64,000 nucleotides of DNA, taken from Leucoraja erinacea (Eukaryota). A program made the position numbers and the translations under genes. The notes beneath the pieces were generated by a model, which searched no databases, was not told the origin of the DNA, and saw only the letters and a list, made by a program, of their open reading frames with translations. The stretch is from contig NC_073386.1 of assembly GCF_028641065.1 (NCBI RefSeq), forward strand, positions 31,620,001-31,684,000, read 5' to 3'. The first letter of the stretch is position 1, and each line of letters starts with the position of its first letter. Positions 18,256 through 62,812 of this stretch are shown here, in pieces.

Positions 18256-18428
18256 GATTGACACAAAATGCTGGAGTAACTCAGTAAAGCAGCATCTCTG
18301 GAGAAAATGAATGGGTGACATATCGTTTCGGGTTGGGGCCCTTCTTCAGATATGCTGCCTAATCCACTGAGTTACTCAAGCATTTCTATTTTTGGTATAA
18401 ACCAGCGTCTGCAGTTCCTTCCTACACA
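18256..18428. mobile_element. Foldback Penelope-pLTR element, degraded
   Basis: Inverted ctggagtaactcag/ctgagttactc arms, minus-strand hammerhead remnant, imperfect flanking repeat caaggcaataaggga/caaggtaaaaggga. Confidence 0.75.
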
Positions 18429-18989
18429 AGGTAAAAGGGAACTTAGGAGGGTGCTCGTTCAAAGAGACGGGTTGGGCTCAATGGGCCAAATGACCGCCAT
18501 CCACTGCACCCATCGACCTGCAGCAATATTGGTGCCAACTCCACATATTCCCTGCATGTCAACAACTCCAGCGCAACACAACCCCTCTTGCCCAACACTA
18601 CCCTCCCGCCCCAACACCCCTCTCTTCCCCCCTTCCACGGCGTACCCCACCCTCTGCCCTCCCTCGGGTCATGAGGTACTACGTGTGCCATGCCGTCTCA
18701 CTGACCCTGACCCCCGCTCCTGGGGCAGTCACGCCATCACCCCGTCCATCCATACGCCCGGAAACACAGTGATAAACGGAGCGGGCGTTGGTGCCTGGTA
18801 ACCAGTACCTCAGTGACCTGTCGCCCGGATCTCCTGGTAACCGGTTCCCCTGATACCTGGTACCAGTTGACCGGTGTCCCAGGTGGGTGGGGGATGGCCT
18901 GTATTATTATCCACCAGCTTTTGGAGGCCGAGCAATAACAAAAATAATAATCACCTGCTCCTACTTCTCATGTAGGCTCTGCATTAGCT

Positions 18990-19162
18990 TAAAAATACTT
19001 CAAACAAAAATCATACTTCTACAATGCACTAAAACATGATTTTAATACATCAAATTTCAAAAAGTCCCTACTGTGGGACCTCCTCCCACACCCTTCCCCC
19101 GAGGCCGGTGATCAGTGATCGCTCAGCCCCCCCCCACTTTCAAAAACGCTCCGCAGCCCCTG
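18990..19162. mobile_element. hAT-like MITE terminal segment
   Basis: Ends cccccccactttcaaaaacgctccgcagcccctg (reverse complement CAGGGGC...); partner end not confidently found. Confidence 0.5.
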
Positions 19163-19586
19163 TTGAGTGGTTAAACACTTATAGAAAATGTTACTTGGGC
19201 AGCTCCTGATCCGAGACAGCCTGGGTGAGGCATGCGTGTTATCTTTATTGTGGAAGAAAATAAATCGTAAGCTTGGTTTCAGCACCGAATCTAAGGACTG
19301 AGGTAAATATGGTTCTAGGACTTGATGATCTTAATAGGAATATCTTGCTCATTTCTCTTACAGTTAGTTGCTTCTAGTCTTTCCTTCGTGGTTAATTTGC
19401 TGCCCCCCAGAACACCACTGCCATCTCAAACACCACTGGATTCTCAAAATTGGGTTAGTCCAGCAAAGTGTTATCTGTTGCTGACACCATGAGGTCCAGA
19501 CTGGTGGTACTTCCACTGTGAAGACACGTCCTTTATCATCCACTGTCCCCTTCTCCTTCAACTCTCTGGATAGTGCAATTAATTCT

Positions 19587-19788
19587 AAGATAGACACAAA
19601 CTGATGGAGTAACTCAGCAAGACAAGTAGCATCTCTGGAGAGAAGGAATGGGTGACGTTTCTGGTCGAGACCTTCTTCAGACGTCACCCAAGCTTTCTCT
19701 CCAGAGATGCTGCCTGTCCCACTGAGTTACCACAGCATTTTATGTCTACCTTCGATTGAAACCAGCATCTGCAGTTCCTTCCTATACA
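19587..19788. mobile_element. Foldback Penelope-pLTR element
   Basis: Inverted arms; minus-strand CTGAAGA...GAAACGTC at 19654-19680; TSD tgcaattaattct (19574-19586) / tgcagtcaattct (19789-19801). Confidence 0.85.
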
Positions 19789-19892
19789 TGCAGTCAATTC
19801 TGTTTGTTTTAAAGCCACCACCACATCACCAAGAATACAAAATGCACCATAACAGAAAGTCTGAACATGGAGGTGGTACAATAATTTAAATT

Positions 19893-20340
19893 ATAATAAT
19901 AATAATAATAATAATTTTATTTATAGAGCACTTTAAAAACAAACATAGCTGCAACAAAGTGCTGTACATCACTAATCATTGACAAAAAAGTTAATACACA
20001 TCAAAAATAACAATCAAAAGAAATAGTAGGAAAAGACATGTAAAATAAAGAAACATCAAAAACACCACAAACAGAAGCAAAGCCTCAGGCATGGTCAAAA
20101 GCCAGGGAGTACAAATGCGTTTTAACACTGGATTTGAAGATGGACAGTGAGGGGGCCTGTCTGATGTGCAGCGGCAGGGTGTTCCAGAGTGCCGGAGCAG
20201 CAACAGAGAAGGCTCTATCCCCTCTGAGCCTCCGACTAGACCTCGGTACCTCCAGGAGCAGCTGACCAGCTGACCTGAGGGACCGGGCAGGAGTGTATGG
20301 GTGGAGCAGCTCAGAGAGGTAAGGCGGGGCGAGCCCATTC
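19893..20340 (-). mobile_element. L2-clade LINE 3' end, young and 5'-truncated
   Basis: ORF 20085-20342 GLAPPYLSELLHPYTPARSLRS...GDRAFSVAAPALWNTLP...KTHLYSLAF is a typical L2 ORF2 C-terminus; (AAT)n tail. Confidence 0.9.
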
Positions 20341-20454
20341 AATTATCAATTAATAATCTAAAACACAATTATGTATTTGTGTTAAATGATTTAAAAAGCA
20401 AAAGCAAACATGATGTAATTACAAACTCATCTGTTCTTTATGACTTAATTAGTC

Positions 20455-21360
20455 ATATCGTAGAGCTTTTTGCCCACTGTATTCACACTAGCCATCAGGT
20501 AATATTGTCCCATTTTCCAGCACTTGGCCTGAGGCTTTCTGTGTCCTGGTACATTGGGTGCTCATCTAATATGTCCTGATGTATTAGACGTCATCATCCT
20601 CTCAGGCAGTGTGGTCCAGATTTCAGTCACCTGACTTAAAAAAAAATCTTCAAATCTCCTCCATATCCTCTACTCTTTACCTTAAACGTAAGCCCTTTAG
20701 TTATGGATAACTCAGATAAGGGTAAATGCTTATTACTACCTATCCTATCAGTGTACCTCATAATTTTCCATTCCTCAATTGTCCTTCCCACTGCCTTATC
20801 TACCCCAAGGAAAACAAATTCAATTGATCCAGTAGCCCCTGAAACACTCCATCCCATGTAATATCATGGTTAATCTCTACTGCACACTATCTGGTACAAT
20901 CACATTCATCCTATGAATGAAGGTCTTCTTACCAATGAGGATCTTCTTACCATCTTTGTATCACTGTGCTGCAGCCATCAGGGATCCTTGGGCAAGTACA
21001 CCAAGGTCCCTTTGTTCCTCAATACTTCCCCGGTTCCTGCTATTATTGTCTGTACCCTAATGTTATTAGTCCTTCCAAAATGTATCACAGCACATTTATG
21101 AGGATTAAATTCCATCAGCCACTTCTCTGCCTATCCTTCCAAGTCATCGGTAACATACAATAGCCAACACCACCCTCCTCACTTTCAACAATGTCATCAG
21201 TGTTTGATAAACACAATGTGCTGGAGCAATTCAGAGGGTCAGGCAGCAACTTTGGAGAAATGGACCAGGTGACTTTTCAGGTTGGAACCCTTCTTCATCA
21301 GTCTTTGTGTCATCTCGGAAGTTACTGAACAAACTATTTTCATTCAATCCAGATTGTTAA
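20455..21360 (-). mobile_element. Degraded CR1 fragment
   Basis: Reverse-complement CR1 motifs (atcatggttaatctctactgcacac, aggattaaattccatcagccac). Confidence 0.6.
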
Positions 21361-21548
21361 CGCATTCGTAAATAAATAGCAATATTTCATATTTTCTTAC
21401 AATGAGGAGGGAGAACATCAAGCCCATTGAATCAATGCCAATTTTCAGGGCCTTCCTGCCATTCCCATTCACCAAATTAGTTTTTCCGTCTATTCTCTCT
21501 CACTTGAACAACAATCCCTCTCTTGTTCTCCCAACAATCAACACACTT

Positions 21549-25984: not shown

Positions 25985-26812
25985 CAGCCACAAATAATCT
26001 GCTGGAGGAACTCAATAGGTTAAGCAGCATCTGTTGGGGGAAAGGAATGGTCAAATGTTGGGGTTACAACCGTGGATCAGGAAATCCAGTCACAGCCATC
26101 TCCTCCCTCGACTCTGTCCAAGGACCCCGATAGTCCTTTCCAGTGAGGTAGAGGTCCACTTACACCTCCTCCAACCGCACCTACTTTATTCGCTGTTCCA
26201 GGTGTGGACTCCTTTGTATCGGCGACACCAAGCGCAGGCTCGGCAATCATTTCGCTGAACACATTTGCTGACCCTACATGTGCTCCCGGTTGCAAAATAT
26301 TTTAACTCCCCATCCCATTCCCACGCTGGCCTTTCTGTCCTGGGCCTTCTCCACTGTCAAAGTTATGCCAAATGCAAATTGGAGGAACAGCATCTCATAT
26401 TTTGTTTGGGCAGCTTACAACCCAGTGGTATGAACATTGATTTCTCTAACTTCAAATAACCCTTGCTTTCCCCCGCTCTCTCTCTGTCCCTCCCGAACTC
26501 CAGTTCTCCTACTAGTTTCACTGTCCTCCTGATTAATTTTACTGTTTGTATGCTTCATTGTCAGCTTCCCCTCATCCAACAACAAACCATTCTACATTTC
26601 CTTGATCATCGCCTGCTTTGATCTGTGCTTTTCATACCGTACATGTTCTTTGTACCATTCCATATTTCGTTTCCCTCTCCAATGACTCTCAGCCTGATGC
26701 GAAACATCAACCATTCTTTCTCTCCAGAGATGCTACCTGTCCCGCTGAGTTATTCCAACAATATGTGTCTATTTTTGTTGGAAACCAGCATCTGCAGTTC
26801 CTTCCTACACAG
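25985..26812 (+). mobile_element. Penelope-like element: short inverted pLTR piece, GIY-YIG region, 3' pLTR
   Basis: YFIRCSRCGLLCIGDTKRRLGNHFA and PVAKYFNSPSH...LEEQHLIFCLGSLQPSGMN; ends ccagcatctgcagttccttcctacaca. Confidence 0.88.
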
Positions 26813-29045: not shown

Positions 29046-29179
29046 TGCTACTACTGCTTTGACACAAGGTCCTAAATTGGTGTTGGCCTTTATTTAAACA
29101 GCCTGCATGCTTCTGGCAGGAAACAATGCAGGGTGTTTAATTTCCTATCCACCCGTTGGCAGAGTGGGAGCTGGGTGAT

Positions 29180-31865: not shown

Positions 31866-33318
31866 CCTCACAGTTTCAAATTGTAACCGCCTCCATATAA
31901 TAGATAGAGTCTTCTTTATACAGCTAAGGTGCAGCACCATTGAGCAGACTAGTGGATGACTGGTGAAGGCATGGTGGCACTGAATGCATTGACAGCCACT
32001 TGTCACAGTAGAATACATTACTGCAACATGAGTCCATAGGAAGGGAACATGCTGCACCTGACCATTGTTGCTAATATTAGTGCCAGCTCTATGATGTGTG
32101 TTGGCTGCAAGTACTCCTGCAGCAGATGGCACAGCTTGGCTACTGGCAGTCTGTTGGCCTAGAGGGCTTGGAGCCTGTTCCAGCTGGTACTTTCTGATGA
32201 GGTGCCTGTAATTGACGATGGAGGTGTATAAACAGGTGAGAGTGAGCTGCCTTGTCTGCCTCTTGTACAGACTAACTGTTTGGCATATATCCGGTTCTTC
32301 TTTGCTCCCTCCAAAATTTAAAAGGAACTCCCATTATCCCAATATTGTGAATACTATTAAATAAATAGCAATCCCAGAACGCCCAGTTCAAGGCCTCTTC
32401 ACCAGATGGTAGCAGAAAAGAAACGGAAGAAAAGCCGAGTAGAAAGACAAAGAGAAATGTTCAGAAACGGCATCAAAGCATAGCTAGAGGCCTATTCAAG
32501 TGCACTACAGTAAAATTCACCCACTCTAGCAGCTTGGGATGCTCACTTCAATGACAAGTAAATGACAAAGCACTGAGCTTGCTTAAGATTTGTAATCATT
32601 TGGGAACGTGTAAATGACATGGTTTTAATGTAATTATCTGCAAATTGACAAGTGCTTTATATGATATGGCTTGAAATACTAAGTGGGCGTAAAAGAGATT
32701 GGTCTATTTTTTCCTGAATGTTTCTATCCATTTGTTGTTTTCTATTTTATAATTGCATGTATGTGTATTTAAGTATTGCTTTTTATATCATGAAATGCTA
32801 AATATACGACTAAATATACGATTGTTTTCAACCATACATCTAAAGGTGCAATTCAATTGGTCGTGGCAACAATCTCAAAATAAATTATGACTGCCTGGAA
32901 ATTATTCAGCTCAAAAATACACACTAAAGTATTCTGTGCAGGGGAACTTGCATTTCATCCGAGACCGCAGAAGAGCTTAGCTTTGCAGAAATTACAGTTT
33001 CAATCAAAGTCACGTGAGAAGGGCAAACTGTGTTGCATAATCTCCCGTTGTGGTAGGAGTTCTTAAAAAGTCATATCACAGAACTACTTTGGGAAAAATG
33101 TGCCTTCAAATGCAGGTTAAATGATGAAGATACGCAAGGTACATCTTCAATGGAACATGAGATGTTGACTGGTGGAGGATCATGTTCCCCCTCCCACTCC
33201 ACCGGTCGCAACTTACAAGGAATATTCATCTAGTAGATGTCTGACATCATGAGATTCATAGAGCATCCAAGTGTTCCTTGGCTGCCAGATTGTCCAAAGC
33301 GACTTGCATTGTATAGAA

Positions 33319-33842
33319 ATGTTTAAGAAAGAACTGCACCTGCACTTCCTCCAACCTCATCTATTGCATCCACTGCTCTAGGTGTCAACTGCTCTACATC
33401 GGTGAGACCAAGCACAGCCTTGGCGATCGCTTCGCCCAACACCTCTGCACAGTTCGCAACCAACCCGATCTCCCGGTGGCTCAGCACTTCAATTCCCCCT
33501 CCCATTCCGTATCCGACCTTTCTGTCCTGGGCCTCCTCCATGACCAGAGTGAGTCGCAACGCAAATTATATGAGCAGCACTTCATATTTTGCTTGGGTAG
33601 TTTACATCCCAGGGGTATGAACATTTGCTACTCCAATTTCAGGTAGTCCTTGCTTTCTCCCTCCCCCTCCTCTTCCCAGCTCTCCCACAGCGCACTGTCT
33701 CCGCCTCTTCCTTTCTTCTTCCTGCCCATCCCCTACCCCCACATCAGTCTGAAGAAGGGTCTCGACCCAAAGCTTCGCCTATTCCTTCTCTCCATAGATG
33801 CTGCCTCACCCGCTGAGTTTCTCCAACATTTTTTGTCTACCT
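33319..33842 (+). mobile_element. 5'-truncated Penelope-like element with 15 bp TSD
   Basis: Short inverted tail (gtttaagaaagaactgca), GIY-YIG relic (LIYCIHCSRCQLLYIGETK), pLTR with CTGAAGAagggtctcgaccc; TSD ttgcattgtatagaa at 33304-33318 and 33843-33857. Confidence 0.9.
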
Positions 33843-34018
33843 TTGCATTGTATAGAACAGCTCTTTACCCAAATCCCATGTTAATATATTAGTAATTATT
33901 TTTCAATGCTGAATATTGTACCAATAACATCAATTTTGTGCTGCATATCAACTGACATCACTGCTAATTACCCAATTGCTTTTGTATGCAAGTAGATCAC
34001 TGGCAGGTAGGCCTGCAC

Positions 34019-34228
34019 GTGTAGGAAGGAACTGCAGATGCTGGTTTAAACCGAAGATAGACACAAAAAGCTGGAGTAACTCAGCCGGACAGGCAGCATC
34101 TCTGGAGAGAAGGAATGGGTGACGATTCGGGTCTGAAGAAGGGTCTCGTCATGAAACGTCACCCATTCATTCTCTCCAGGGAAGCTGCCGGTCCCGCTGA
34201 GTTACTCCAGCTTTGTGTCTATCTTCTA
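34019..34228. mobile_element. Foldback Penelope-pLTR element with hammerhead core
   Basis: GGGT-CTGAAGA(34133-34139)...GAAACGTC(34153-34160)-ACCC; TSD taggcctgca (34008-34017) / taggactgca (34229-34238). Confidence 0.88.
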
Positions 34229-34339
34229 TAGGACTGCATACCAGTCTCCCAGACTGCCGCATGCAAGCAAGGAATTGTCAATCACACTGAGCAATTGGTT
34301 TCCATTTAAAAAATACTACATTGTAATGGGTCATATAAA

Positions 34340-38123: not shown

Positions 38124-38172
38124 CCCTAGATCTTGTCATAACAGAGACCTTAAGCAAAGTGGGCCTTACCTA

Positions 38173-38401
38173 GGAAGAAACTGCAGATGCTGGTTTACAC
38201 CAAAGATGGACACAAAATGCCATATTATGCTGGCGTAATATGCGGGACAGACAGCATCTCTGGATAGAAGGAATGGGCGACGTTTCGGGTTGAGACCCTT
38301 CTTCAGAGTGAAGAAGAGTATCGACCCGAAATGTCACCCATTCCTTCTCTCCAGAGATGCTGCCTGTCCCGCTGAGTTACTCCAGCATTTTGTGTGTATC
38401 A
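38173..38401. mobile_element. Foldback Penelope-pLTR element with two divergent hammerhead cores
   Basis: Minus core 38279-38306 intact; plus core 38308-38339 mutated; TSD tgggccttaccta (38160-38172) / tgggctttgccta (38402-38414). Confidence 0.88.
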
Positions 38402-38959
38402 TGGGCTTTGCCTACTTGAGTCACGGTGGGGACTGGGAGTCCAATATTGTGTTACTAATCCACATCACTTCATGACTGGGTGATTGGGTGGAGGAAGGCA
38501 CAGAGCAACCTTATGAATGCTTCCACTGTTTGACATGCAGGGTATCTGCTATCATTGAGAACCACAACTCCTGAAATTTCACAAGATTAGTATGCGTATC
38601 TGTCAGTGCTGAAGATCTGGGAATAACACTGTCAACTTGCATGTCCTGTGAATAAAGTCACACTCCCCCATGTTTCCTGAAGAGATTAACCATTGGACCG
38701 CAGATTGTCACATGGTGTGGAATTTCCAAATTGTCAAATCTTTATGTATTAATTTCTGTCAAACAAATGAATGCATTAAATGTCAAAATACTGAAGAAAT
38801 ATACTGATACGCTGATGTACTAATATACAGTTATGACAATCTGCTGTTCATTTTTTGACAATTACCCTGATACCATCACCCCAATTCAATTAAATGTGTT
38901 TATTTTGCTTACTGTTTGTATCGTTTTGAGTAAACATAAATATTAATCAAGACCAGGGC

Positions 38960-43330: not shown

Positions 43331-44809
43331 ATAAGGATAAAAAAAATCAGGTTCTTATAAATTACGGGAATATGTTTATTTTGCTTATATAAATAGATTT
43401 TTATAAAGTACATAGAAAGGAAACTCCCAACAGATCAAGCAGCATCTACAGCAAGAGTCATAAAGTTAATGTCTCGGGTCAATGCCCTTTCATCAGAAAA
43501 TAATCTACATGTCTGCGACTGATTTAAAGAATTAATCTCCTTCCCACATCAACATTCAGAGCAACTGTTGTCTAATGCAGTTTGTGCTGAGAATAGCAAA
43601 GCAGGGATGAGAATCTCTATCAGTTAAACATGAGCCTTGAGAGTGCGGAATATTTAACTTTCATGAATGCTGTTTTAAAGAACTCAAACACTTCTTTCTA
43701 TTTATCATTCTTCAAAAGAAGTCAAGCTGACTTCTATTGGCATTTGCAAATGGATCTGGTTGTTAATGACAACAGATTTAGGCTAGCTGATGTGAATTTA
43801 AAATAAAAATGAAGATGTAATAAGTAAAACCAAGGCTGTGAAAAGGTTGATTTGTTTATTGTGAATTATTGTGGAATTGGTTTAAGAAGTGAGTGTCACG
43901 TGTATTTTAACTTCAGTGTGTGTAAAAAAAAAGATTTCAGTATGTGTGTTTTAGTTAATCTGATTGTGGTCTGTTGTTCCTGACAATGCGGTCACAAAAC
44001 TGAGATTATTTTTGTGTAGGTTAAAGCTCCTGACTTGTGTTAGATTGCAATTGATTCATAGTGTATTTGGGGGAACACAAAGTGGTTACAATACAAGAAA
44101 AAACTGTTCTCTCAGAAAGAAGCATGCTTCCCAATCATTACCTTAACTGCTATTTGATCTTGTGTTTCTCCCTGAGGAAAAGACTCATCAATCCCAGACA
44201 GTTTATTTGTAATAGGGGAAAAGAAAGAAACTCCCATGCCACAATGAACCATTGTGCATTCAGAAACCGTATTGAAAACCTGCAGCTAAGTATTGGTAGA
44301 TTGCAGGAAAATAATTTGGGGACAAAAAATCCTTTTAATGATTCCATTGCAAGTGCTATCTCATAACTAGTATTTAGGAGTATCATCAATGCCAGTATGA
44401 GTGCAAACTGCCAGTATCAATGTAAAGTGCATTATCCCACTCCTACAAAATGAACTGATGCACAGTTTAGTAGTTATGCTGTGCTTCTAATGGCCTTAAA
44501 ATGAAGCTGACCTTCAATGTCAATCCCTTGTATTGTATAGCGGAGAAATACCAAGGGAAAGGAAAGAGGACGAGAAATGTGATGGTACCTCGAAGTTGGA
44601 CAGAAGCCCATGACAGTTTTGAAGTTGTAAAACATCATGACTACATGCTGATGGCAATAAATGTTACAAATAATCCACATGAGCTTGGTTCAGATAAACA
44701 TAAAGCAACAAAAAAAACTGCAGTTTCTGGAAATCTGAAATAAAAACAGAAAGTACAGATATTAAGCAGGTCAGATAACACTGCAAACAGTGAGTTATCA
44801 TGACAGATT

Positions 44810-46650: not shown

Positions 46651-46935
46651 AGAAATCTTCAAAATGCCATCTAATATAAACATTCTTACTAGTTGAATCA
46701 TAATAAATCCATCCCTTCATCAAATAATAATCCCAATTGCAAATAGGCAATGTTTGAGAAAGTTACTTCGTAATTTGGCTGAGCTATGTCTGCTCTGTGG
46801 GTGAGAAACAATTGCCTAAATAATTCTATGCAGTCATGATAGGGGGATAGGCTGCCTGCCTGATGGGTTGACTCCTGGCACAGCTGTAAGCAATATTGCA
46901 TATATAACTTGGGCATCTAACTACTATTTCAGGCT

Positions 46936-47138
46936 GTTTAAGAAGGAACTGCAGATGCTGGAAAATCGAAAGTACACAAAAAAGCTGGAGAAACACAGCG
47001 GGTGCAGCAGCATCTATGGAGCAAAGGAAATAGGCAACGTTTCGGGACAAAGAAGGGTTTCGGCCAGAAACGTTGCCTATTTCCTTTGCTCCATAGATGC
47101 TGCTGCACCCGCTGAATTTCTCTAACTTTTTTGTGTAC
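46936..47138. mobile_element. Foldback Penelope-pLTR element, second subfamily, perfect 15 bp TSD
   Basis: Arms gcagcatctatggagcaaaggaaataggcaacgtttc / gaaacgttgcctatttcctttgctccatagatgctgc; TSD ctactatttcaggct at 46921-46935 and 47139-47153. Confidence 0.9.
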
Positions 47139-49099
47139 CTACTATTTCAGGCTCTTGGCTGAGGCTGGATTGTGAGTAAACTCAACATACTTCAGTGTGA
47201 ATTCACAGACATATGCAACCAAACTGATTAGAACTGCTGGGAGCTGTCAACCCACGTGTAGCTCTAAGACTTTGGGTTGTCACCTTGTGGAAGTTGATGA
47301 AGCAGGAGTACAGCCCCACCTTTAACCCCACACCCATCCCTCAACCTCCACTCCAGATTGAAATCACAAGAAAGTGTGTGTGTCACACAGCTTTCGCCAC
47401 ATTGCCTCTATTCCTCTGGGTCCGTCTGCCCACTCTGGTTAAAGTCATTTCTCCTCTGTGAATGGTGAGCTGTCTCTTGGGAACACTACTGTGCTCTCAG
47501 TTCACTGCCAATAACCTAATGAGGTCAGTGGGCTAACCTGCCTTGATCTAGACATCGCCTTCATTAGATAAATGCAACTTAGGCTGCTTCTAATTTAGGT
47601 GCATTTCCTCAATGAGACAATTATTTCTGGATTATAATATGTTTTGTTTAGCACTGTATGCCCTATTATATTCTAAATGTGATGGATTCATTTACCTTCA
47701 AGTTGCAATGATCATGTCGTGTTGAACCAATTGAAAATACTTTCAACATCGATTGTATTCAGGCAATTACACTACTATCCTCAAATGCATTGAATTAACA
47801 TGAGAGCTGGAATAATGAGGAATCTTTCACTGTTGTTGTCTGTGTGCCTGTCACAGTATTTGATTATACTGTGATAAACATTCTGTGTGTGTGGTCCCTA
47901 GTTTCCATGAGATGGAGTAGAAATGTATGAAATGAATAAAATTAACTCCAGGTGCATTCAGATAGGTTTGATATCAACTGGTTTAGAAATATTATTGCAA
48001 CAAATCTTTAACTTAATTGCAGCACTGCATAGTGAATGGGAACGAGCCATAATGATGTACAATAGTTCTTTTTTATTGTTGTAAAATGCAGTCAAGAGCA
48101 TTGGTTTCTTTTTAACGAGGTTGTGTCTATACAATAAACTAAAAATCATACAACCTGTCAGGTTACATGTGGCAAATCATTTGTTTCTGTGCCTTATGTG
48201 CCAAAGATTTATTGACAAATTATGAAGTATTGATAAGCCACAAAGCCACTTCCATTTTTCACAGAGTCCAACAGATGCAATTCATCACAAATTTTGATTC
48301 CGGACCAGCTATGTTAAAATTAAGTTGGTGGAATCCTTTCTAAAGAACTCTGAGTGAAAAGCAATATTTGCATTTTAAGGTTGACACGAGGCATCTGAAA
48401 ACTTATGATCATTGTTAATACTAGTCCCTGAAATCCTGCATAGTGGTGGTCTTTACTAAGGAGCTCCAACTTTAGAAGTATTAATCAAATGACATACAGT
48501 GCATATATAGTGCTACAATGATAAATGTATGCACAATGCCATGAAAGGCCACATCAAAATCAAAGCAAATGGGGAGGCAGATAAGTGTAATCAAGTGATG
48601 GTGATTCTGTGCTTCTAAATAACAAATTGAGAAGAATGTTTACTGAAAGGAAAAATTGTTATTTATGTTCTCAGCGCAGCTTAGTACACCGTAGACATCA
48701 ACTTATTTTGGTATATAGGCAAATGAGCAGCAGAATTGTACATTACGTTTCAAAATCAGCAAATAATATACATAACCAGTGAACCAGCTTTGGAATTATT
48801 GTCTGCAACATAAACTCTTCACTTTTTTGAACATTGCAGTCTTTCGTATTTCTGAGCCATTAGGCAGTTCTGAAATGAGCTCTATTGATGCCTCATAAAA
48901 AATATCAAAGCTTTATTGCAGATCTGTTGCAATAAAAATCATGATAATTGGGAGCTGTGCAGGAACAGTGAAGGAGCTTACGTTTCTTTGCCTATTCACA
49001 TTGTTTTCTGGCCCTTAGCTTCAAATTGCCCCCAGATGAATGAGGTGCATTTATGTTCAACAATGATAAGAAACAGATAATTATTATTTTTTTAATTTT

Positions 49100-50363: not shown

Positions 50364-51912
50364 AGAATTTATTACCCACCCCTAATTGCTATTAAGAATA
50401 TAATGGTGTGTCACCATCATGTTACTTTTGCTGGAATTTATCCTGAATGCAACTATTTTTTATAACATGCCTTATCATTTTCCCCTTGTTACTATCTCTC
50501 TACGTATAGTTTTTACTAATGATATTTTCGTAAACACTTCAATGTATTCAATTTCTTTGGAAAAATCTTTCCCTTGTGCTTCCCTCATCAAGACTCATTT
50601 GCATGCTTAAAACATTGCAATTATATATTTTCTCCATTGCCCAGACCTATTGCAACACTATTCATAGAGCCCATAAATTAACCTTATATGCACTGTATTA
50701 TGCATTTATCTGCAATAAGATTTTTTTTATTACTGTTCTGCGCATGTGCATACTTTGTTCAACTCATTCTATATTTTTTGAACAGTTTTATTTCCCTCCA
50801 CAATGTTTATCATATGAAGCAGAGTTGTTATCATTAGTGGAGACACTCATTCCTCAATTCGTTCTGGGATGGATGATGAAATTGGCAATAACAAAATTTT
50901 AAAAACAGAAGGAATAATGTATGAGGGGCACACATCCGGATTTAGTACTGATATATTTTACTAGATTTTTTGTTGTGCATTGAAAGCAAAGATGTAGGAT
51001 TACCACAATTACAGATAGACAAAACCCCTGAAGAAATGTAAACAATCTGACGGGATTTGTGGTATGATATGCTTCCATTACAGATAGATGGCCATCTCTC
51101 AGTCTGAGGTATTAATTTTTACATCATTGCATATCATCTTGGTTGTGGCAGATATAGAAACTGATTCAGCACTATCACGGAAAGCTGCCAAAGCTTTGGT
51201 GCCAGAGTTGTAAAAGAAATGTGATAATGTTAGTGCCTCTGACAGCAAAATATATTATCTGAAGACATTGCTTTTCCTTTGCCATTAGCCACAAAGATAA
51301 ATCAACCCGAACAATATTGCTGGACAGCATGGGAGGGATTATAACTTTCTCTGTCAGGTGGCAAACTGGTGGTAAACATGAAAATCAGTTGGAATACAGA
51401 ATGGATGGCTGATTCCCATCTCCCATTTACCACCTCAGTCAAAAAGTAACATTCGCTCATGGGTTGTCAGTTTTTGATAGTTGAGGTTTTTGTTAAATTG
51501 CGAGTCCATGTCTGCTTATGATTCCAATTATGCTTACTCACAAGTAATGACACACTTGCATATATACACATTGTTATTTGCCTCTTCCTAACCCTGTCTG
51601 AAGGAAGGCCTGACCTGAAGCATCGTCTGTCCATTTACTCCACCTGTTGCCTGACTCACTGAGTTCCTCTTGTTTCACTCAACACTCCAACATCTGCAGT
51701 TCTGTTTGTCTCCAGTCAGAAACCTGTCTGCTAATGTAGATGACATGGATTATAATACCAAAGCGATAATTGAAAGAAATCTTCAATAAAGACAGTGTAT
51801 ATATTATGAAAAGAACCTTGCTGGCATATACCTCAAACCTATAATGAATTTCCATTTTCTTGTGCACATTAAGCTTCAGATGTTACAGGGACACATGAAT
51901 ATCCAATATAAC

Positions 51913-53051
51913 TTAAAGCTTAAAGTACACAGCATTGGGGGTTCAGTATTGATGTGGATAGAGAACTGGCTGGCAAACAGGAAGCAAAGAGTAGGAGTAA
52001 ACGGGTCCTTTTCACAATGGCAGGCAGTGACTAGTGGGGTACCGCAAGGCTCAGTGCTGGGACCCCAGCTATTTACAATATATATTAATGATCTGGATGA
52101 GGGAATTGAAGGCAATATCTCCAAGTTTGCGGATGACGCTAAGCTGGGGGACAGTGTTAGCTGTGAGGAGGATACTAGGAGACTGCAAGGTGACTTGGAT
52201 AGGCTGGGTGAGTGGGCAAATGTTTGGCAGATGCAGTATAATGTGGATAAATGTGAGGTTATCCTATTTGGTGGCAAAAACGGGAAAGCAGACTATTATC
52301 TAAATGGTGGCCGATTGGGAAAGGGGGAGAGATGCAGTGAGACCTGGGTGTCATGGTACACCAGTCATTGAAGGTAGGCATGCAGGTGCAGCAGGCAGTA
52401 AAGAAAGCGAATGGTATGTTAGCTTTCATTGCAAAAGGATTTGAGTATAGGAGCAGGGAGGTTCTACTGCGGTTGTACAGGGTCTTGGTGAGACCACACC
52501 TGGAGTATTGCGTACAGTTTTGGTCTCCAAATCTGAGGAAGGACATTATTGCCATAGAGGGAGTGCAGAGACAGTTCACCAGACTGATTCCTGGGATGTC
52601 AGGACTGTCTTATGAAGAAAGACTGGATAGACTTGGTTTATACTCTCTAGAATTTAGGAGATTGAGAGGGGATCTTATAGAAACTTACAAAATTCTTAAG
52701 GGGTTGGACAGGCTAGATGCAGGAAGATTGTTCCCGATGTTAGGGAAGTCCAGGACAAGGGGTCACAGCTTAAGGATAAGGGGGAAATCCTTTAAAACCG
52801 AGATGAGAAGAACTTTTTTTGCACAGAGAGTGGTGAATCTCTGGAACTCTCTGCCACAGAGGGTAGTTGAGGCTAGTTCATTTGCTATATTTAAGAGGGA
52901 GTTAGATGTGGCCCTTGTGGCTAAGGGGATCAGGGGGTATAGAGAGAAGGCAGGTACGGGATACTGAGTTGGATGATCAGCCATGATCATATTGAATGGC
53001 GGTGCAGGCTCGAAGGGCCGAATGGCCTTCTCCTGCACCTAATTTCTATGT
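51913..53051 (+). mobile_element. Young 5'-truncated CR1 LINE (RT domain and C-terminus, one frameshift)
   Basis: ORFs 51844-52371 (VTSGVPQGSVLGP...KFADD) and 52353-52967 (RPHLEYCVQFWSP...TRGHSLRI), plus 3' tail. Confidence 0.97.
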
Positions 53052-55239: not shown

Positions 55240-57290
55240 CTATACCTTGGGACCAGTCTGGGAAGGCAGGACATGTACCAGCTGGATAGGCTGCACAACA
55301 GCAAAGTTGGATGGAAAATGTTTATAGGAAGGTTTGCCAGAATCTTCGGGGAGAATTTAAACTAGATCGACGTTGATTCCGGAGGATCAGTGGGTAAAAA
55401 ATGGAAAGCAGCAAATTAGTAAGTAAATCTGAAAGGAAGAGGAATCAAGGGGTAGAAAATTGAAAACAAAGGAAGATGCAAGTAGCTGTTGTTCTTTAAT
55501 GCTGTGATGGAACTTGTGAATAGGGTAGATGACTGAAAGCATACATGGATTCATAGAAGTATGAAATCAGAGTTGTCACCAAAATGCAGCTTTAAAAAAC
55601 CCCAGAAAAGGTGGTTCAGAACATGGCTGGGGAATTTTCAAATAATAGATATAATTCCTCCTCTCTACCCACCCAGAATGTTGAGTATAATCTCCTGCAC
55701 ACCTATCCAAACAGTGTAGTATAGTCCTCCTCCACAACCCAGGAAGTCAGAGGAAGACCAAAAGTAAATACAAAAAGCTGGAGTATCTCAGTGGGATAGT
55801 CAGCATCTCTGGAAAGAAGGAATGGGTGACATTTTGGGTCAAGAACCTTCTTCAGTCTAAACCCGAAACGTCACCCATTCCTTCTCTCCAGAGATGCTAC
55901 CTGTCCCGCTGAGTTACTCCAGCTTTTTGTGTCTATCTTCAGTTTAAACCAACATCTGCAGTTCCTTCTAACACAATAAAAGTAAATATGTAAACAAATA
56001 TCTGAGTACAGAAAGTATATGGTAATAATTCAATATTTCAACCATTGTAACATTAATGACAGAAATAATGTATAGAATTTATTAAAATACATTCAGAGCA
56101 GCTCATTTTTAGCCTATGTTAAGCAAGTTATGCATCTGGCTTCACAGGGTGATAGAAACATTGATGAAGATGAGGAGTGTGGACCCCAGTGCAGGGGGAA
56201 ATATCAAGCCTGATGATTGCCTTTGAAAATAGATAAATAGTCAGGCCCAGGAAAAAAAAACATACTTCAGCTGTTGAGAGAGGCTGCCAATGTCCTCCAG
56301 GCTCCTGGTCACCTGTCCACAAACCACCCACTCATCCAACCTCCTTCTTCCACCAACAGAACCTTGATTACCTGATCAACAGTTCACCAATCTCTGATCA
56401 CCTCTCTGACCAGCTTCTGATATCCAGTCTAATCAGCCACCACCAAGAGTCTGGCCTGAATCTGTTGTTGCTGACTTAAATCTAGTGAGCCCGATATCAG
56501 CGTAGGTGAAGCTGTTGGAGGGAATTCTGAGGGACAGGATCTACCAGCATTTGGATAGGCATGGACTCATTAGGGATAGTCAGCATGACCTTTTCAATGG
56601 GAAATCATGTCTCACAAATCTGCTTTTGGAAGCGGTTATAATGAGGGCAGGACAATGAACATTGTCTATATGGTCTTTAGTAAGGCCTTTGACATGGTGC
56701 TGCATGATAGGCTTGCTGGAAGGTTAGAACGGATGGGATGGTGAGCTAGCTAATTGGATTTAAAATTAGCTTAGAGGAAGAGGTCAAAGGATAGTTGTGT
56801 CGATGGTGGGCCCACTGTTGTTTGTTATATACATTAATGATTTAGATGACAATGTAGTTAAGATTGTTACAGATAACACCAAGATTAATTGTATAGTAGA
56901 CAATGCGGAATGATATCCAAGTTTACAACAAGCTCTAGATCAGTTAGAATGATGGCTCAAGGAACGGCAAATGGAGTTTAGCTCTGAAATGTGTGAGGTG
57001 ATGCAATTTAGTACGTCAAACCAGAGCATACCCATAAATGGCAGAGCCCTGGAGATTGTTGAAAAACAGAGATCTGGAGTACATGGTTCTCATAAAGTGG
57101 TAAGTCAGGCGAAGTGTGGTGAACAAGGCATTGGACAGGCTAATTTTGATTGGGAAGGGTATTGAGCATGTACTGTAAGTTAGGATATCAGCTCTACAAG
57201 TCATTGGTGCGGTTACATTTTAAGTACTGTGTGCAGTTCTGTTTGCCCAGCTGCAGGAAGGATGATATTAAGTTGGAAAAGGGTGCAGAA
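55240..57290 (+). mobile_element. Fragments of an old CR1 (ORF1 esterase-like piece ~55240-55370; RT relic ~56500-57290)
   Basis: tgggaaggcaggacatgtaccagctggataggctgcac; agggatagtcagcatga, tttagtaaggcctttgac, attaatgatttagatga. Confidence 0.6.
55771..55977. mobile_element. Foldback Penelope-pLTR element
   Basis: Inverted arms around cttcttcag...cccgaaacgtcaccc; TSD aaaagtaaata at 55760-55770 and 55978-55988. Confidence 0.88.
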
Positions 57291-59689
57291 TAGAGGCCTC
57301 ACTGCTGCCGACACCACACTTCACGTCTCCGTGATTTTATTCTCTCTGTTCAGTCTAAACAGAAAATCTTTCCTTCAAATTACGACAACATAAATCCATG
57401 TGAATAAGAGATTAAACCAAAAGGACAAAGAAATAGAGGTAACATTGTTGAAGCTTGAGGTTATATCTCAACCGTAATCCTGTTTACAACTTTATGAATC
57501 TTAAATTTACATAAGAGAGTGCATGGCATCCTTTCCTGAGTGTAACTTGTGTACAAGTTGGTGTACAGTAATGAATATTTTGATAAATGAATGAAGAGGA
57601 AAGGAGCCACAAAAGTAATGAGGAGTTGTAGTAATGAGGAGATGATGCAGTGATGATTTTGCCATGCCTTTAGTGTACGAATTCGCAACAGTGAATTATT
57701 TTTGAAAACTCCTAATATCCTTTTTTTTTGTGCAGAACAATTGCAGAGAAGGTGAGACCGACAATTATTTTGTCATTTGTTTTTGATGGTTCACCAGTGG
57801 AAATACTTTTCACCTTTTTATTCCATGCTGTAGAAGTAGAAAGAAAGTGACTATTAATCTTCTGAGTAACGTTTTTAAAATGAGAAGTCTGATGGATTAT
57901 TGATGGCAGCTTAGTGCATGATGGCAGCAGAAAAACCTGAGAGGAGAGCATTGATTTGACCTCAAATTTAGCACATGGTACACGATGCAAAAGGAATGTA
58001 TTGAGTTAAATAGTTCTGTTTGTTTAATGGTGAGGATGATGCATTTGTCCATTGTGCCTAATGGAAGGTCTGGAGAAAATTAATCACCAAACAGGACATA
58101 GCAAAAGACTGGAGAATGAAATGTTTAATGTCATCCAATAAACTCCACATTCAGCATCATATCACTCACTGAAATATCAATTTAGATGTTGTCCTCATTT
58201 CTTAAGTTGGGTTTGAACCCATGACACTCAGACTCAGTTTTAAAAAGGCTATCAGAGAAATAGTTCACATTTAATCAATAAAGGAGAAACAAATGCTGAA
58301 GGTCAATGTATGCAGCATTTCCTGATGTCATTAACAAATATGTTAGTCTGCCCTCCTCATGCATGTGAATACAGCACAAATATTTTGCCGTGGAGTTAAA
58401 CTCCTAAACAAATCCAGAGAAATTATTCAACAAAGGTAGCGTGTTTCTATTAATGGATAGACGGTGGAGTTCGTTTTACTTTCATTGCACTTTAGACCGA
58501 TATATTTAATATTCATAGACCTATGCTCTTTCTAAACAGCCTAGGAATTATCAATCATACACAAGAATGAAAAATGAACTGCCTATTGTGCCAGTAATTG
58601 AATTAAATAGTCCAAAAGGATTCAAGGGATTAGTATATGAATGTTGATTATAGGTTTTAAATCTAATGATTAGGATTCAAAGGGTTAATGATAGCAATTT
58701 ATTAAAGCTTGGTTTCATTAGACTTGTCCTTTTGTAAAATTAATATACATATTTATTATAATAACACAATCCTACCAACAGAGTGAAAGACTCATCAATT
58801 TCTATTAGCAGTGACTCTTTTCATCTTTGTTCTGTTTGTGCAATGAAGCCTTGCACAAAAACACAGGGATGAACAGAATGAATCCAACAAAAGGGACTAC
58901 TGTCTGCCGAAAGGACTGTTTTGTTTTAAATGCTCTAAAAATTCACGTTTTACGTGATTCTAACTAATGGGTGGCTATTTATTCAATAGACACGTTTGTT
59001 TAACATTTTCTTCTATGATTTATAATAATGTTATGTATCTGTATGTTTTATTATACTTTTGCTTGTAACATTTAAGGGACAATCGGGCATTCCTTCCATC
59101 ACATGATTTCCCCGTTCTGTTCCAGTAAAATGCTTCACATTACACAGTTAGAAATGAAATACACGATAAATCTCTTTCTCAACGTTTACTGGCAGGTCAC
59201 CATTCAGGAATCTCATTCATCACCTCCGCAGCTTTCCATCCTCAACCCATCTGATAAGGTTTTGCATCATCCATCCCAGTCTATCCTTTGGTTGACCCAT
59301 TTCCTTGGTGTTCTCAGCTGTTTCCTCCCATGAATTACTTGCAATAGATTACTGGCCAGGCAAGCTCTCCAGATAACGCAGGTATGAACAAGTGCAATTA
59401 TGGTACACTGATGTTGTGATTGATCAGTAATTTTATACCTCCATGTTCTTGCTGTTAAGCAGCTAAAGTATTGTGTATATGAATCCTATATTTGTCTGAT
59501 ATAAACCTCCCAATAATTTTTTAGCAATAGATTTGATAACGATTAAAAGTGGCTATTTGAATCAACATATCAAATGTAATCCTACATTAAAGTGTGTAGG
59601 CATTGTGCAATGTAAGATTGTTCCAATACACAAGGATCATGAAGAGCAATTGATGAGTAGAAGCATTTTGTGAGGTTTATATTTTGCTG

Positions 59690-60240
59690 ATAGTCATAGA
59701 ACATAGAAAGTGCTGCTCAGGAATACGCCCTTTGGCCCACAATTTGAATGCAAGAAAAACTAATTGCATCTGCCTACACAGTTGTGATCCATTCCCTCCA
59801 TTTCCTAATATCCATGTACTTCTCTAAAGCGCTTAAACGCCACTATCACATCTGCTGCCAGCACAACCCATGACAAAGCATTTCAGCCACCCATCACTCC
59901 CTGTATATAAAAAAAAAAGATCATTTCATCTTAATGCTAATTCCTCTAGTCTTTGACATTTCCACCCTGGGAAAAAGGTTCTGACTCTCTACCCAATCGA
60001 TGCCTCTACTTGTGTTGCCACTTTCAGGGAGCTATGGACTTGGACACCTAAGATCCCTCCGTATATCAATGATGTTAAGGATCATGCCAGTAACTGCATA
60101 CTTCTCCATACATCTGACCTCCCAAAGTGCAACACATCATATTTACTCGGATTAAACTTCATCTGTCATTCCTCTACCCATTCCTGCAGCTCATCTAAAT
60201 CCTATGGCCAGCCTTCTCATGGTCTGCATCTCCAACAATC
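59690..60240 (-). mobile_element. Degraded CR1 3' fragment
   Basis: catagaacatagaa tail; ccacttTcagggagctatggacttggacacc; cccaaagtgcaacac. Confidence 0.7.
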
Positions 60241-61769
60241 TTGGGGCCGATTGAACACCAGAGGCCACTGCAACTGCACCTGTTCAACTGTTGCAAAATT
60301 AATCTATGAAATCCCAGGAGCTGATGTGAATATTTTGCTTGATTTATTTCAACTGTATAGATTATGTTTAAAACTGTTGTACTTACCTGCCCTATAAAGT
60401 TTATCATTGTTCCACATTGAACAGGTACTTGTATTGAACTTGTAGAATGGCTCTAATGTTAAAGTAAGATTATACAATGATGTAGGTAGTCGTGTTCTAC
60501 TTACAGCACAGTGAGAGCTATTGTTGGCTAAAGGTAACATATATCATAAATATTATCAGTGTGCATTGGTGCCAGAGAGCAGCAGATTCACCGCAACCGT
60601 TCCTTTTGGCACTGTTAAGGGGTTTGATTATCAGCCCAACTCCTCGTTTGATGAATAGGACAGGAGGATTAAGAAGTTTATTTTTGATGGGTGGGTGTAC
60701 TCCAGTCGTTAGGCAGATTTAGTCCACGTGGAACCAGGAAAACCGCTAGTAGTGTTGCAGCATTGTGAAAGGTGACCTTAGTTTTTGTCAGCAGTTTTAA
60801 AATTAATCGCCATTTTAAACTTGGCTTTGTGCAACATAGCAATTTTATTTTGTCTGTATGCTTGTTTTTACAGAAAGTAGTTTTGATTTGTGTTGAGAGA
60901 AATAAAGAAGTATAAGTAAAAATGTTGCATGTTCATGTGAAATTAACGTTGTAATGGGAGTATAACATGACTGCAGGATTTTGGACGTTTCAGTTCTCTG
61001 CACTGACAGATTTTTATCCTGTTATATACCTAACAGTACAAAGGGTATATTTGGTAGTGATGCTGTGACGGGAACACTTCACACTGCACTTCTACTTCCA
61101 CTAATTGAATAGGGCCATTGAATTTGTTTCTTAGAAACTAGTGAGTTGGCGATTGAGTTGCTGGAGTGTGAACCCAACTCCCACTGCTTGGATCATTGCT
61201 GATGTGTATCGCAATTCCTTTTAACCTTTTAGATTTTCAATAGCCTAACAATACTTCCATTTTTTAGTGTATGGAGTCAGATATGGTAACAATCATTTCC
61301 AGATAATGTCACATCGCTCCTGAAATGCAACCAGGCACATGAGTTCCCCCTTGTGCCGCTGCTGTGATTCTTGCGTCAGAGCCCACAGCAGGACTTTGTG
61401 CCCTTTGGTAGTTCTTTTCGGAGTTGCAGGGGAACTTGGTCCTCCACTGTGTTGTGAGCTGCCTGCCAGTAAAATAATAACATCTCTATGTATAATGAAT
61501 GTGCAACCTCCAGCCCATCACCTGACTCCCACCCATGGTTACACCTTTTTATCTGTCCCACTGCGATTTTCACCCTGAGCTTCCCCCACCACCGCTCTTC
61601 CTTCTACTTCACCACCAATTACCGTCTTTGAACCACTGGTCCATCTTCCACATCATTCCCAGTATTCTCTGATTTTCCGCTGCTTTCCCCTTCACCCATC
61701 CACAATCTCTCCTACCAATGTAAATTGCTTGTTTCTCGGCTTTTCCCCAATCTAGTTTCAGTAAAAACA

Positions 61770-62430
61770 CTGAACCAAGCTCTTGAAACAACTACATTTT
61801 ATTTTAACAAAAGCGCAGTACAGTTCAACTACTGTACCTATCCCACCGCGGGTTCGATCCTCGTTTCTGTCTGTTCAAGCCCTCTAGGCCTCGCTCGGAC
61901 AGAGACACTCCCGAAGTTCACGCAGTCCCAAGCGCTCTCCCAGAAGATCGACCCTGGACCTCATGGTAGCGGATTTTTATGTCCCGGGACCTTGACGGGC
62001 CGAACCATATGGGGGTGATCTCTTAATAATCCAATTACAGATATTGATTAACCCCTTACATAACAGACATTTCCCTAACCCAATAATACAGCAGCTCAAT
62101 ACATTGTATTCAAACAGGGCTTCTCAAGGAAGTCAACTTAGAAAACATTTACCCTGATCTGCAGGAAACACAGACAAGGCTCAATATCTCATCCAATCAA
62201 CACTCGGCAAAGCTAAACTCTGCAACATTATTTACAATTATTTGCAAGGTGCATGTCTGGTTGCAGCCATCCAATCCATTCTATGCATTTTGCACCTAAT
62301 TGACAGGGTCTGCAGATGTTCTTATTCTTTGCTTGCAAATTGTATCTAGGCTCTAGACTCACTGGCACACCTCCGCAGTGTGTCCCAGCTCTGCAGAGAG
62401 CAATTCCAAATTGACCAAATCTCCCAGCAT
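61770..62430 (-). mobile_element. Putative retroviral-type solo LTR (boundaries uncertain)
   Basis: Minus strand has cataaaaa (TATA-like, ~61974-61981), a GC-rich R-like segment and AATAAA (~61798-61803); TSD not established. Confidence 0.4.
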
Positions 62431-62591
62431 CCCTGAAGCTTTTACCCCATTTTGAAGTCCTAGCCTCTCCAATCTGGCCAGGATTAACATCAGCATCTAA
62501 GCCTTCAGTCTGCTGGTTTACACTCCAACATCCTAAAAGGCAATATCACTAGCTGCATACTAGACCTGTCTCCAAAACACATCCTAAACCT

Positions 62592-62812
62592 AAGATAGAC
62601 ACAAAATGCTGGAGTAACTCAGCGGGTTAGACAGCAACTCTGGAGAAAAGGAATATGTGATGTTTCGGGTCGCAATCCTTCTTCAGACATTTCGACCTGA
62701 AACGTCACATATTCCTTATCTCCAGAAATGCAATCTGACCCACTGAGTTACCCTCCAGCATCTTGTATCTATCTTTCGATTAAACCAGCATCTACAGTTC
62801 CTTCCTAAACCT
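62592..62812. mobile_element. Foldback Penelope-pLTR element
   Basis: Inverted arms with hammerhead remnants; TSD atcctaaacct at 62581-62591 and 62813-62823. Confidence 0.88.

What the first reader, a model, noticed from the sequence alone, without database searches (positions are those of the whole stretch)
18256..62812. Family of ~200 bp foldback retro-insertions with inverted minimal hammerhead ribozymes and long TSDs
Seen: at least 7 copies (18256, 19587, 34019, 38173, 46936, 55771, 62592). Each has two inverted ~70-90 bp arms, a one-sided ~35 nt extension (GTGTAGGAAGGAACTGCAGATGCTGG) and its own 10-15 bp flanking direct repeat (perfect at 46921/47139, 55760/55978 and 62581/62813). The centres contain whole or partial CTGAAGA-A-GGGTCTCGACCC-GAAACGTC on one or both strands. 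The arm sequence equals the 3' end of the GIY-YIG-bearing elements at 25985 and 33319. Established: Penelope-like elements carry pseudo-LTRs, often inverted, with minimal type I hammerheads (CUGANGA...GAAA, palindromic ACGU stem III, thought to cleave as dimers). Inference: these are either a non-autonomous ribozyme-bearing retroposon mobilised by Penelope RT/endonuclease or extreme truncation products of it. They look like MITEs, but their variable-length TSDs indicate retrotransposition.
Basis: partly seen in the sequence, partly recalled or inferred. Interest (0 to 1): 0.8.

Follow-up and report, generated by a model that had tools for sequence, protein, structure and literature searches.

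The report
Penelope retrotransposon double-primed hairpin stubs
These ~200-base hairpin repeats are real, very common, head-to-head stubs of the end of a Penelope-type retrotransposon, likely made afresh at each insertion when two short DNA copies of one RNA are joined, rather than a self-copying ribozyme element, which makes them a useful record of how this poorly understood transposon class probably integrates.

Summary
All seven foldbacks are real. Their arms are the pseudo-LTR (pLTR) of RT + GIY-YIG Penelope-like elements (PLEs, likely Neptune clade), joined head-to-head, and the 'extension' is the known 30-40-nt PLE tail. In 1.064 Mb sampled, 67 head-to-head pairs (vs 3 tail-to-tail) hold 134 of 377 arm hits; 62/67 have the tail on one arm only; 32/67 keep a TSD of 10 bp or more (control 4.5%).

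They do not behave as one replicating family: the commonest junction is 5/67, junctions recur on several subfamily haplotypes, 27/67 lack the ribozyme 5' core on both arms, both arms share private variants, and 2.5-4-kb RT-bearing insertions show the same design. At two palindromic junctions the central base is uncoupled from the tail side (14:13 and 23:16). This favours two cDNAs, primed at the two known PLE start sites and annealed, over the published self-priming idea.

The hammerhead motif is present, but stem I is 2 bp and the foldback hairpin is predicted to sequester it; cleavage is untested. Verdict: new short variant of a known PLE insertion structure, of mechanistic interest; not a new ribozyme retroposon.

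The parts
18255..18428 (+). Foldback copy 1: tail-less inverted pLTR arm (to position 0) joined to a sense arm truncated to about +41, with tail; TSD degenerate
19587..19788 (+). Foldback copy 2 (junction -1/+24, 2-nt microhomology); TSD 19574-19586 / 19789-19801, 13 bp, 2 mismatches
34018..34228 (-). Foldback copy 3 (recurrent GAC junction -1/+16), tail on the left; TSD 34008-34017 / 34229-34238, 1 mismatch
38173..38401 (-). Foldback copy 4 (palindromic -4/-4 junction; the only window copy with both arms reaching the ribozyme 5' core); TSD 38160-38172 / 38402-38414, 2 mismatches; folds as one long hairpin, z -16.3
46936..47138 (-). Foldback copy 5 (subfamily C, junction +4/+18, no ribozyme core); perfect 15-bp TSD 46921-46935 / 47139-47153
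55771..55977 (+). Foldback copy 6 (junction -2/+11); perfect 11-bp TSD 55760-55770 / 55978-55988
62592..62812 (+). Foldback copy 7 (junction -1/+14, 3 extra bases); perfect 11-bp TSD 62581-62591 / 62813-62823
33319..33842 (+). 5'-truncated PLE: GIY-YIG endonuclease C-terminus, pyrimidine-rich UTR, pLTR ending at the inner (tail-less) site; 15-bp TSD near 33304 / 33843
33750..33777 (+). Minimal hammerhead-like motif in its native PLE context (this copy is mutated in the GAAA/stem III part)
26100..26808 (+). 5'-truncated PLE of subfamily A type: degraded GIY-YIG remnant (26158-26456), UTR, pLTR with tail
25987..26078 (-). Solo pLTR insertion with its own 15-bp TSD (1 mismatch); not the 5' arm of the neighbouring PLE
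21207..21297 (-). Solo tail-less pLTR insertion, 13-bp TSD (1 mismatch), 5' limit near +1 to +3

Best explanation
Each foldback is a single insertion of two head-to-head, 5'-truncated copies of a Penelope-like element's pLTR between one target-site duplication, likely made by twin priming, in which the PLE protein would prime one cDNA from each nicked target strand on the same RNA. One cDNA would start at the outer ('tail') site and the other at the inner site ~35 nt upstream. The two short cDNAs (mostly 135 nt or less) would then anneal through a palindrome or microhomology and be filled in. SHOWN: pLTR identity of the arms, head-to-head polarity, tail on one arm, TSDs of variable length, heterogeneous and recurrent junctions, arms sharing private variants, the same design in kb-long insertions, and a sharp 5' limit at about -4..+1 (C of CUGAAGA = +1). 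INFERRED: twin priming, use of one RNA molecule, annealing with mismatch repair at the palindrome centre, and that the 5' limit is the RNA's 5' end so that short cDNAs come from the pLTR at the start of the transcript. The hammerhead is carried along because it is part of the pLTR; it is probably not needed to make these copies.
For: Polarity 67 vs 3. Tail on exactly one arm in 62/67 unbiased copies and 39/40 young copies; the two end points equal the two 3' ends of GIY-YIG-bearing copies and parallel the two RT start sites bounding the tail in Anolis PAc, whose protein cuts and extends both strands and is predicted to be a dimer (PMC11167929). Central base of two different palindromic junctions is uncoupled from the tail side: 14:13 (27 of 30 scorable) and 23:16 (39 of 40, P=0.34), as expected if two cDNA ends anneal with a central mismatch. 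Arms of one copy: 103/112 differ at <=2 of 9 diagnostic sites vs 37% for random pairs; rare variants shared by both arms 14 vs null mean 1.6, max 9 in 5,000 shuffles. All three main arm haplotypes also occur behind a GIY-YIG ORF. Five 2.5-4.1-kb insertions have inverted arms of 95-1,028 bp at 98-99.6% identity, a tail on one side and 13-18-bp TSDs. At the GAC junction the tail is on the truncated arm in 23 vs 2, an asymmetry that a finished DNA palindrome could not create. L1 twin priming with internal duplication is the known analogue (10.1101/2024.08.27.596794). Only 1 of 93 solo arms starts at +28 to +30 (the ribozyme cut), while 58 of 93 start at -4..+4, in line with HHR cleavage being dispensable in vitro.
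Against: No biochemical or RNA-end data here: one search listed no confirmed RNA holder and laid contigs only. Arm concordance could also arise from gene conversion between arms or from copying one arm off the other. The 5' limit is not absolute: 18 of 30 copies holding the ORF start run far upstream of it and only 3 of 30 stop at -6..-1, so a pause or palindrome effect, not an RNA end, may explain it. Three junctions are very frequent (311, 387, 1,488 exact motifs), so limited secondary amplification is not excluded. 35 of 67 unbiased copies show no TSD of 10 bp or more (age is the likely cause, not tested). One main haplotype (GGAA) had only one convincing ORF-linked copy (L287).
Confidence: 0.7

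Rival explanations
1. Self-priming (snap-back): one cDNA folds back at the pLTR palindrome and copies itself; endonuclease cleavage trims one end, leaving the tail on one side (close to the proposal in PMC3846280). Still a by-product of PLE insertion, not a separate family.
For: Palindromes at inverted junctions; arms share private variants; symmetric junctions (-4/-4, 11/11, 42/42, 33/34) look like hairpin tips; published interpretation.
Against: A snap-back from the tail-primed cDNA fixes the central base relative to the tail, but 14:13 and 23:16 were seen. The tail-less arm is often the longer one at the junction (29 vs 18 of 67 reach +1 or further; 23:2 at GAC), so it cannot be a copy of the tail arm, and an inner-primed cDNA holds no tail to copy.
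Confidence: 0.13
2. An independently replicating, non-autonomous, ribozyme-bearing foldback retroposon, mobilised as a unit by PLE RT/EN.
For: Very high copy number (about 63 per Mb in the sample); recurring exact junctions, up to 1,488 copies of one; narrow size (mostly 179-194 bp in that class).
Against: Commonest junction only 5/67; the same junction on several haplotypes and in both orientations to the tail; no systematic left-versus-right arm difference beyond CpG sites and one end column; no shared donor flank abutting the left end in 40 copies beyond 6 scattered short matches; the 1,488-copy class lacks CUGANGA altogether; a transcript would fold into one long hairpin pairing the core.
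Confidence: 0.07
3. All copies were inserted with one complete palindromic centre and the junction variety arose later by hairpin-tip deletions in the DNA.
For: Long perfect palindromes are unstable in genomes (recalled, not from a call); many junctions show 1-5-nt microhomology.
Against: The 23:2 link between the deleted side and a tail 100 bp away; young, nearly identical-armed copies already differ in junction; does not explain kb-long inverted arms. It may still add to the variety.
Confidence: 0.07
4. A DNA-transposon MITE.
For: Short, high-copy, inverted arms.
Against: TSDs of variable length, mode 14-15 bp in young copies; asymmetric ends; arms are the end of an RT/GIY-YIG retroelement.
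Confidence: 0.01

Closest known systems
Inverted-pLTR insertions of EN+ Penelope-like elements with the one-sided 30-40-bp tail (PMC3846280, PMC8557442, PMC2377424)
   Same: Inverted 5'-truncated copy head-to-head at the 5' end, palindrome at the inverted junction, tail at one end only, TSD around the whole unit.
   Different: Here the body between the arms is usually absent, so the insertion is only ~200 bp, and this form holds about a third of all pLTR hits in the sample (134 of 377). The passages read describe such arms around longer copies.
Anolis Poseidon element PAc in vitro (PMC11167929)
   Same: Two RT start sites bounding the tail; both target strands cut and extended; HHR in the pLTR at the ORF start, not needed for insertion.
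   Different: PAc is Penelope/Poseidon clade; this family has the Cys motif in the RT-EN linker typical of Neptune/Nematis. The parts read do not explain inverted arms or report foldbacks.
L1 twin priming with internal duplication (10.1101/2024.08.27.596794)
   Same: Both nicks prime on one RNA; microcomplementarity joins the two cDNA ends; inversion within one TSD.
   Different: L1's second priming is at a random internal site; here both starts are fixed and 35 nt apart, so the arms nearly fully overlap in sequence.
Non-LTR retrozymes (PMC7229834; 10.64898/2026.07.22.740005)
   Same: Short, non-coding, PLE-pLTR-related, type I hammerhead motif, long TSDs.
   Different: Retrozymes are head-to-tail tandem repeats with a hammerhead in each unit, expressed as circRNA; these are head-to-head, often core-less, with a 2-bp stem I.
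Minimal hammerheads of metazoan PLEs (PMC4209133)
   Same: CUGANGA, extra base before stem II, G10.1-C11.1, palindromic ACGU stem III; that paper also notes dual motifs 100-700 bp apart on opposite strands in Schistosoma.
   Different: Stem I is 2 bp here (as in D. virilis Penelope) rather than 4-5 bp.

Membership tests
EN+ Penelope-like element (parent) | RT followed by C-terminal GIY-YIG endonuclease in one ORF | tested here: met
   L296 784-aa frame: RVT_1 E=1.5e-6 and GIY-YIG E=0.006, both just under Pfam cut-offs; window ORF GIY-YIG E=1.2e-4, above cut-off
EN+ Penelope-like element (parent) | pLTR formed by partial tandem; pLTR is the start of the next unit | tested here: met
   Unit ~3.9 kb; pLTR continues through the tail into shared ORF-start sequence in L279, L280, L281, L283, L296
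EN+ Penelope-like element (parent) | Inverted 5' pLTR, one-sided 30-40-nt tail, variable TSD | tested here: met
Neptune clade | Zn-finger-like Cys motif in RT-EN linker | tested here: met
   C-x4-C-x2-C before GIY-YIG in the translations; feature named in PMC8557442 (shared with Nematis)
Neptune clade | RT phylogenetic placement | not tested
   No reference RT set was fetched
Independently replicating non-autonomous retroposon | Copies share one master structure (junction, arm differences, own diagnostic sequence) | tested here: not met
   Top junction 5/67; junctions on several haplotypes and both orientations; arms concordant within copies; haplotypes shared with ORF-bearing copies
Non-LTR retrozyme | Head-to-tail tandem units | tested here: not met
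   67 head-to-head vs 8 same-strand pairs within 60 bp
Non-LTR retrozyme | Complete type I hammerhead in each unit | tested here: not met
   Both arms reach the 5' core in 7/67, one in 33/67, none in 27/67, by position only; 0 of 7 window copies have two complete cores
Non-LTR retrozyme | Expressed as self-cleaved linear and circular RNA | not testable with these tools
   Only contigs of unconfirmed kind were available
Minimal PLE hammerhead | CUGANGA, extra base, stem II, GAAA, palindromic stem III, NUH | tested here: met
   202 arms: stem II pairs canonical in 86-93%, with a one-sided A-to-G change keeping U-G; no two-sided covariation seen
Minimal PLE hammerhead | Stem I of 4-5 bp | tested here: not met
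   Pairs 1-2 canonical in 71% and 92%; pairs 3-4 in 5% and 9%
Minimal PLE hammerhead | Self-cleavage as dimer or with protein | not testable with these tools
   Needs an in vitro assay; no Rfam hammerhead match
MITE | Fixed short TSD and symmetric TIRs of a DNA transposase family | tested here: not met
   TSDs variable, mode 14-15 bp; asymmetric ends; arms are retroelement pLTR

The most novel reading that the evidence does not exclude
Double priming is a routine route of Penelope integration: a dimeric PLE protein primes two cDNAs from the two fixed start sites of one RNA, most often on the pLTR at the transcript's 5' end, giving strong-stop-like 100- and 135-nt cDNAs that anneal at built-in palindromes. 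The roughly 10^5 foldbacks of this genome are its fossil record and explain both the inverted pLTR and the one-sided tail, replacing the self-priming model.
Probability: 0.45. Interest if true: 0.68.

Novelty: new variant of a known kind. Interest (0 to 1): 0.45.

Why it matters
How PLEs make their inverted pLTRs and one-sided tail is described as unresolved in the papers read (PMC8557442, PMC3846280, PMC11167929). This genome holds a very large, countable set of minimal products, and the centre-base-versus-tail count is a simple sequence test that separates twin priming from self-priming and can be repeated in any PLE-rich genome or in the existing in vitro system. Practically, such copies look like MITEs and score against miRNA-hairpin models, so they risk mis-annotation. 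As a new self-replicating ribozyme element, the finding does not hold up.

Tried and rejected
Rfam scan: no hammerhead family matched to E=10; only non-specific miRNA-hairpin hits. Splicing idea: the pyrimidine tract plus YAG just before position 0 looks like a 3' splice site; a search for the predicted spliced join gave 22 hits, but 8 of 8 inspected were another subfamily's native UTR end, so no evidence of spliced copies; 14 were not inspected. RNA evidence: no RNA holder listed; contigs of 4 runs laid on 33300-34260 gave no usable starts, ends or splice joint among the rows shown, most rows being cut. Templates made by ribozyme cleavage: rejected as the main source (1 of 93 solo 5' limits at +28..+30; 1 of 30 ORF-start copies at +29). 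A hard RNA 5' end at -2: only partly supported. A first look for full-length copies through long GIY-YIG frames found only truncated copies. A 4-bp stem I created by the foldback junction was seen by eye in copy 34019 but competes with the long hairpin and was not pursued. Lunse et al. (PMC5785218) was not held. Earlier scan findings: none returned. Ten paper searches listed no paper on short PLE foldbacks in this group or on twin priming by PLEs; Repbase, Dfam and subscription papers were not searchable, so prior description is not excluded.
Full report
OBSERVATION. The seven copies exist at the stated places, each as a minus-strand arm followed by a plus-strand arm of one ~135-nt sequence. 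The three perfect TSDs are confirmed; three more carry 1-2 mismatches; that of 18256 is degenerate. The window lies on contig C10 of a 2.19-Gb genome; that it is a cartilaginous fish is my recollection of the repeats, not a result. I sampled 1.064 Mb without regard to the repeat: the window, 200 kb beside it and eight 100-kb blocks that I chose on other contigs. A profile from 12 natural copies found 377 arm hits; neighbours within 60 bp were 67 head-to-head, 3 tail-to-tail, 6 ++ and 2 --. That is about 63 per Mb (3 to 12 per 100 kb by block), roughly 1.4 x 10^5 if extrapolated. A direct repeat of 10 bp or more with at most one mismatch flanks 32 of 67, against 4.5% of shuffled flank pairs.

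WHAT THE ARM IS. The ORF at 33317-33643 is GIY-YIG and has 98,150 first-look candidates in the genome. Most of the 30 top copies end in the arm sequence, at one of two points: an inner one or ~35 nt further. Longer copies carry RT then GIY-YIG with a C-x4-C-x2-C linker motif, the feature given for Neptune/Nematis PLEs (PMC8557442, passages). The unit is ~3.9 kb, and in partial tandems the arm runs on into the ORF start. So the arm is the pLTR and the extension is the known tail. An inverted 5' copy, a palindrome at the inverted junction and a tail at one end only are described PLE features (PMC3846280, passages and Discussion; PMC8557442; PMC2377424 and PMC8969392, passages).

IS IT A REPLICATING FAMILY? 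Positions are counted from C of CUGAAGA = +1, with the cut after +28. Among the 67 unbiased copies the commonest junction occurs 5 times and five others twice; by position both arms reach the 5' core in 7, one arm in 33, neither in 27 (old copies align imperfectly, so these are approximate). Three junction motifs are frequent genome-wide: 311, 387 and 1,488 exact matches, reversed-pattern controls 0. The first two occur on several haplotypes and the third on several micro-variants. Over 125 usable of 153 pairs (67 unbiased, 86 from targeted searches), arms within a copy differ by 0.137 against 0.20 between copies, and no column outside CpG sites and one end column separates left from right arms. 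Of 112 scorable copies, 103 differ at 2 or fewer of 9 diagnostic sites (null 37%); 9 differ at 3 or more, of which at least one looks like a misalignment. In 40 young copies of the 1,488 class, rare variants are shared by both arms 14 times, null mean 1.6, maximum 9; exact TSDs peak at 14-15 bp; flanks show only six scattered short matches. The three main arm haplotypes also lie behind GIY-YIG ORFs, one of them with a single convincing case. Of 20 long RT-bearing loci, 6 passed my filter for an inverted arm at 95% identity or more; 5 have arms of 95-1,028 bp, a tail on one side and 13-18-bp TSDs, and one is unclear. The foldbacks are therefore the short end of a continuum.

MECHANISM. The tail is on exactly one arm in 62 of 67 (both 2, neither 3) and 39 of 40. 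Frangieh et al. (PMC11167929, parts 1-2 of 4 read) show a PLE protein cutting and extending both target strands, starting RT at two sites that bound the tail, predicted as a dimer, with ribozyme cleavage dispensable. Two junction classes sit on imperfect palindromes with one unpaired central base. Snap-back of a tail-primed cDNA fixes that base relative to the tail; annealing of two cDNA ends leaves a mismatch repaired either way. Observed: 14:13 (3 of 30 unscored) and 23:16 (1 of 40 unscored, P=0.34). At the GAC junction the tail is on the truncated arm in 23 against 2 (5 of 30 unscored), so the tail-less arm is usually the complete one; it cannot be a copy of the tail arm, and later hairpin deletion would not favour a side. 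I infer twin priming on one RNA, like L1 twin priming with internal duplication (10.1101/2024.08.27.596794, passages), with the inner-site cDNA perhaps running first. Gene conversion between arms could mimic part of the concordance and was not excluded.

WHY SO SHORT. Tail-less arms stop at -4..+1 in 27 of 67. Solo pLTRs without UTR-like upstream sequence start at -4..+4 in 58 of 93, and at +28..+30 in 1; several have TSDs abutting this point. One long insertion has a tail-less arm ending at -2. Position -2 is the A of an initiator-like TCAGT (consensus recalled), which suggests run-off at the RNA 5' end from the first pLTR of the transcript. Against this, 18 of 30 copies holding the ORF start extend far upstream and only 3 stop at -6..-1. 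The same place looks like a 3' splice site; the test for spliced copies failed. This step is the weakest.

RIBOZYME. In 202 arms the motif matches the minimal PLE hammerhead of Cervera and de la Pena (PMC4209133, parts 1-2 of 4 read): core, extra base, 4-bp stem II (86-93% canonical, one-sided variation only), palindromic stem III. Stem I is 2 bp, as in D. virilis. Rfam finds none. No window copy has two complete cores, and foldback RNAs are predicted to form one long hairpin pairing the core. Retrozymes are head-to-tail with a ribozyme per unit (PMC7229834, passages; 10.64898/2026.07.22.740005, parts 1-2 of 5 and passages), which these are not. PMC6765202 was seen as passages only; PMC5785218 was not held. 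No supplements were read; alignments or Repbase entries there may already show such copies.

VERDICT. A real, abundant feature; a new short variant of the known inverted-pLTR PLE insertion; not a MITE, not a retrozyme, probably not self-replicating. Its interest lies in the mechanistic test. Interest 0.45; confidence in twin priming 0.7, and about 0.9 that these are insertion by-products of some kind.

Noticed in passing
window 3190-3927: Near-perfect 364-bp inverted repeat (98%, 10-nt spacer), unrelated to the PLE; looks like a true MITE-type palindrome.
   Followed up: no
window 63484-63984: A second nested inverted repeat, about 500 bp, MITE-like.
   Followed up: no
window 51790-52967: LINE-type RT remnant (RVT_1 E=1.5e-13), split over two frames.
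   Followed up: no
all PLE subfamilies, just upstream of pLTR position 0 (e.g. window 33700-33749; L271-L278): Different 3' UTRs all end in a pyrimidine tract plus YAG right at hammerhead stem I, like the D. virilis Penelope intron end; no spliced genomic copy found in 8 of 22 hits checked.
   Followed up: partly
G000 genome-wide; L329-L368: One young subfamily's stem II (UUCG loop) lies in a 15-nt near-palindrome that gives a ribozyme-less ~185-bp foldback with 1,488 exact junction copies.
   Followed up: yes
L300: A copy holding the ORF start whose 5' limit is exactly +29, the predicted ribozyme cut; a single case.
   Followed up: no
window 9226-9429 and 9750-9860, 1405-1443, 43420-43496, 51594-51703: Further old PLE fragments: a GIY-YIG remnant and solo pLTR pieces of other subfamilies.
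   Followed up: no
window 46992-47118: The foldback scores against several Rfam miRNA-precursor models below their gathering scores, a mis-annotation risk.
   Followed up: no
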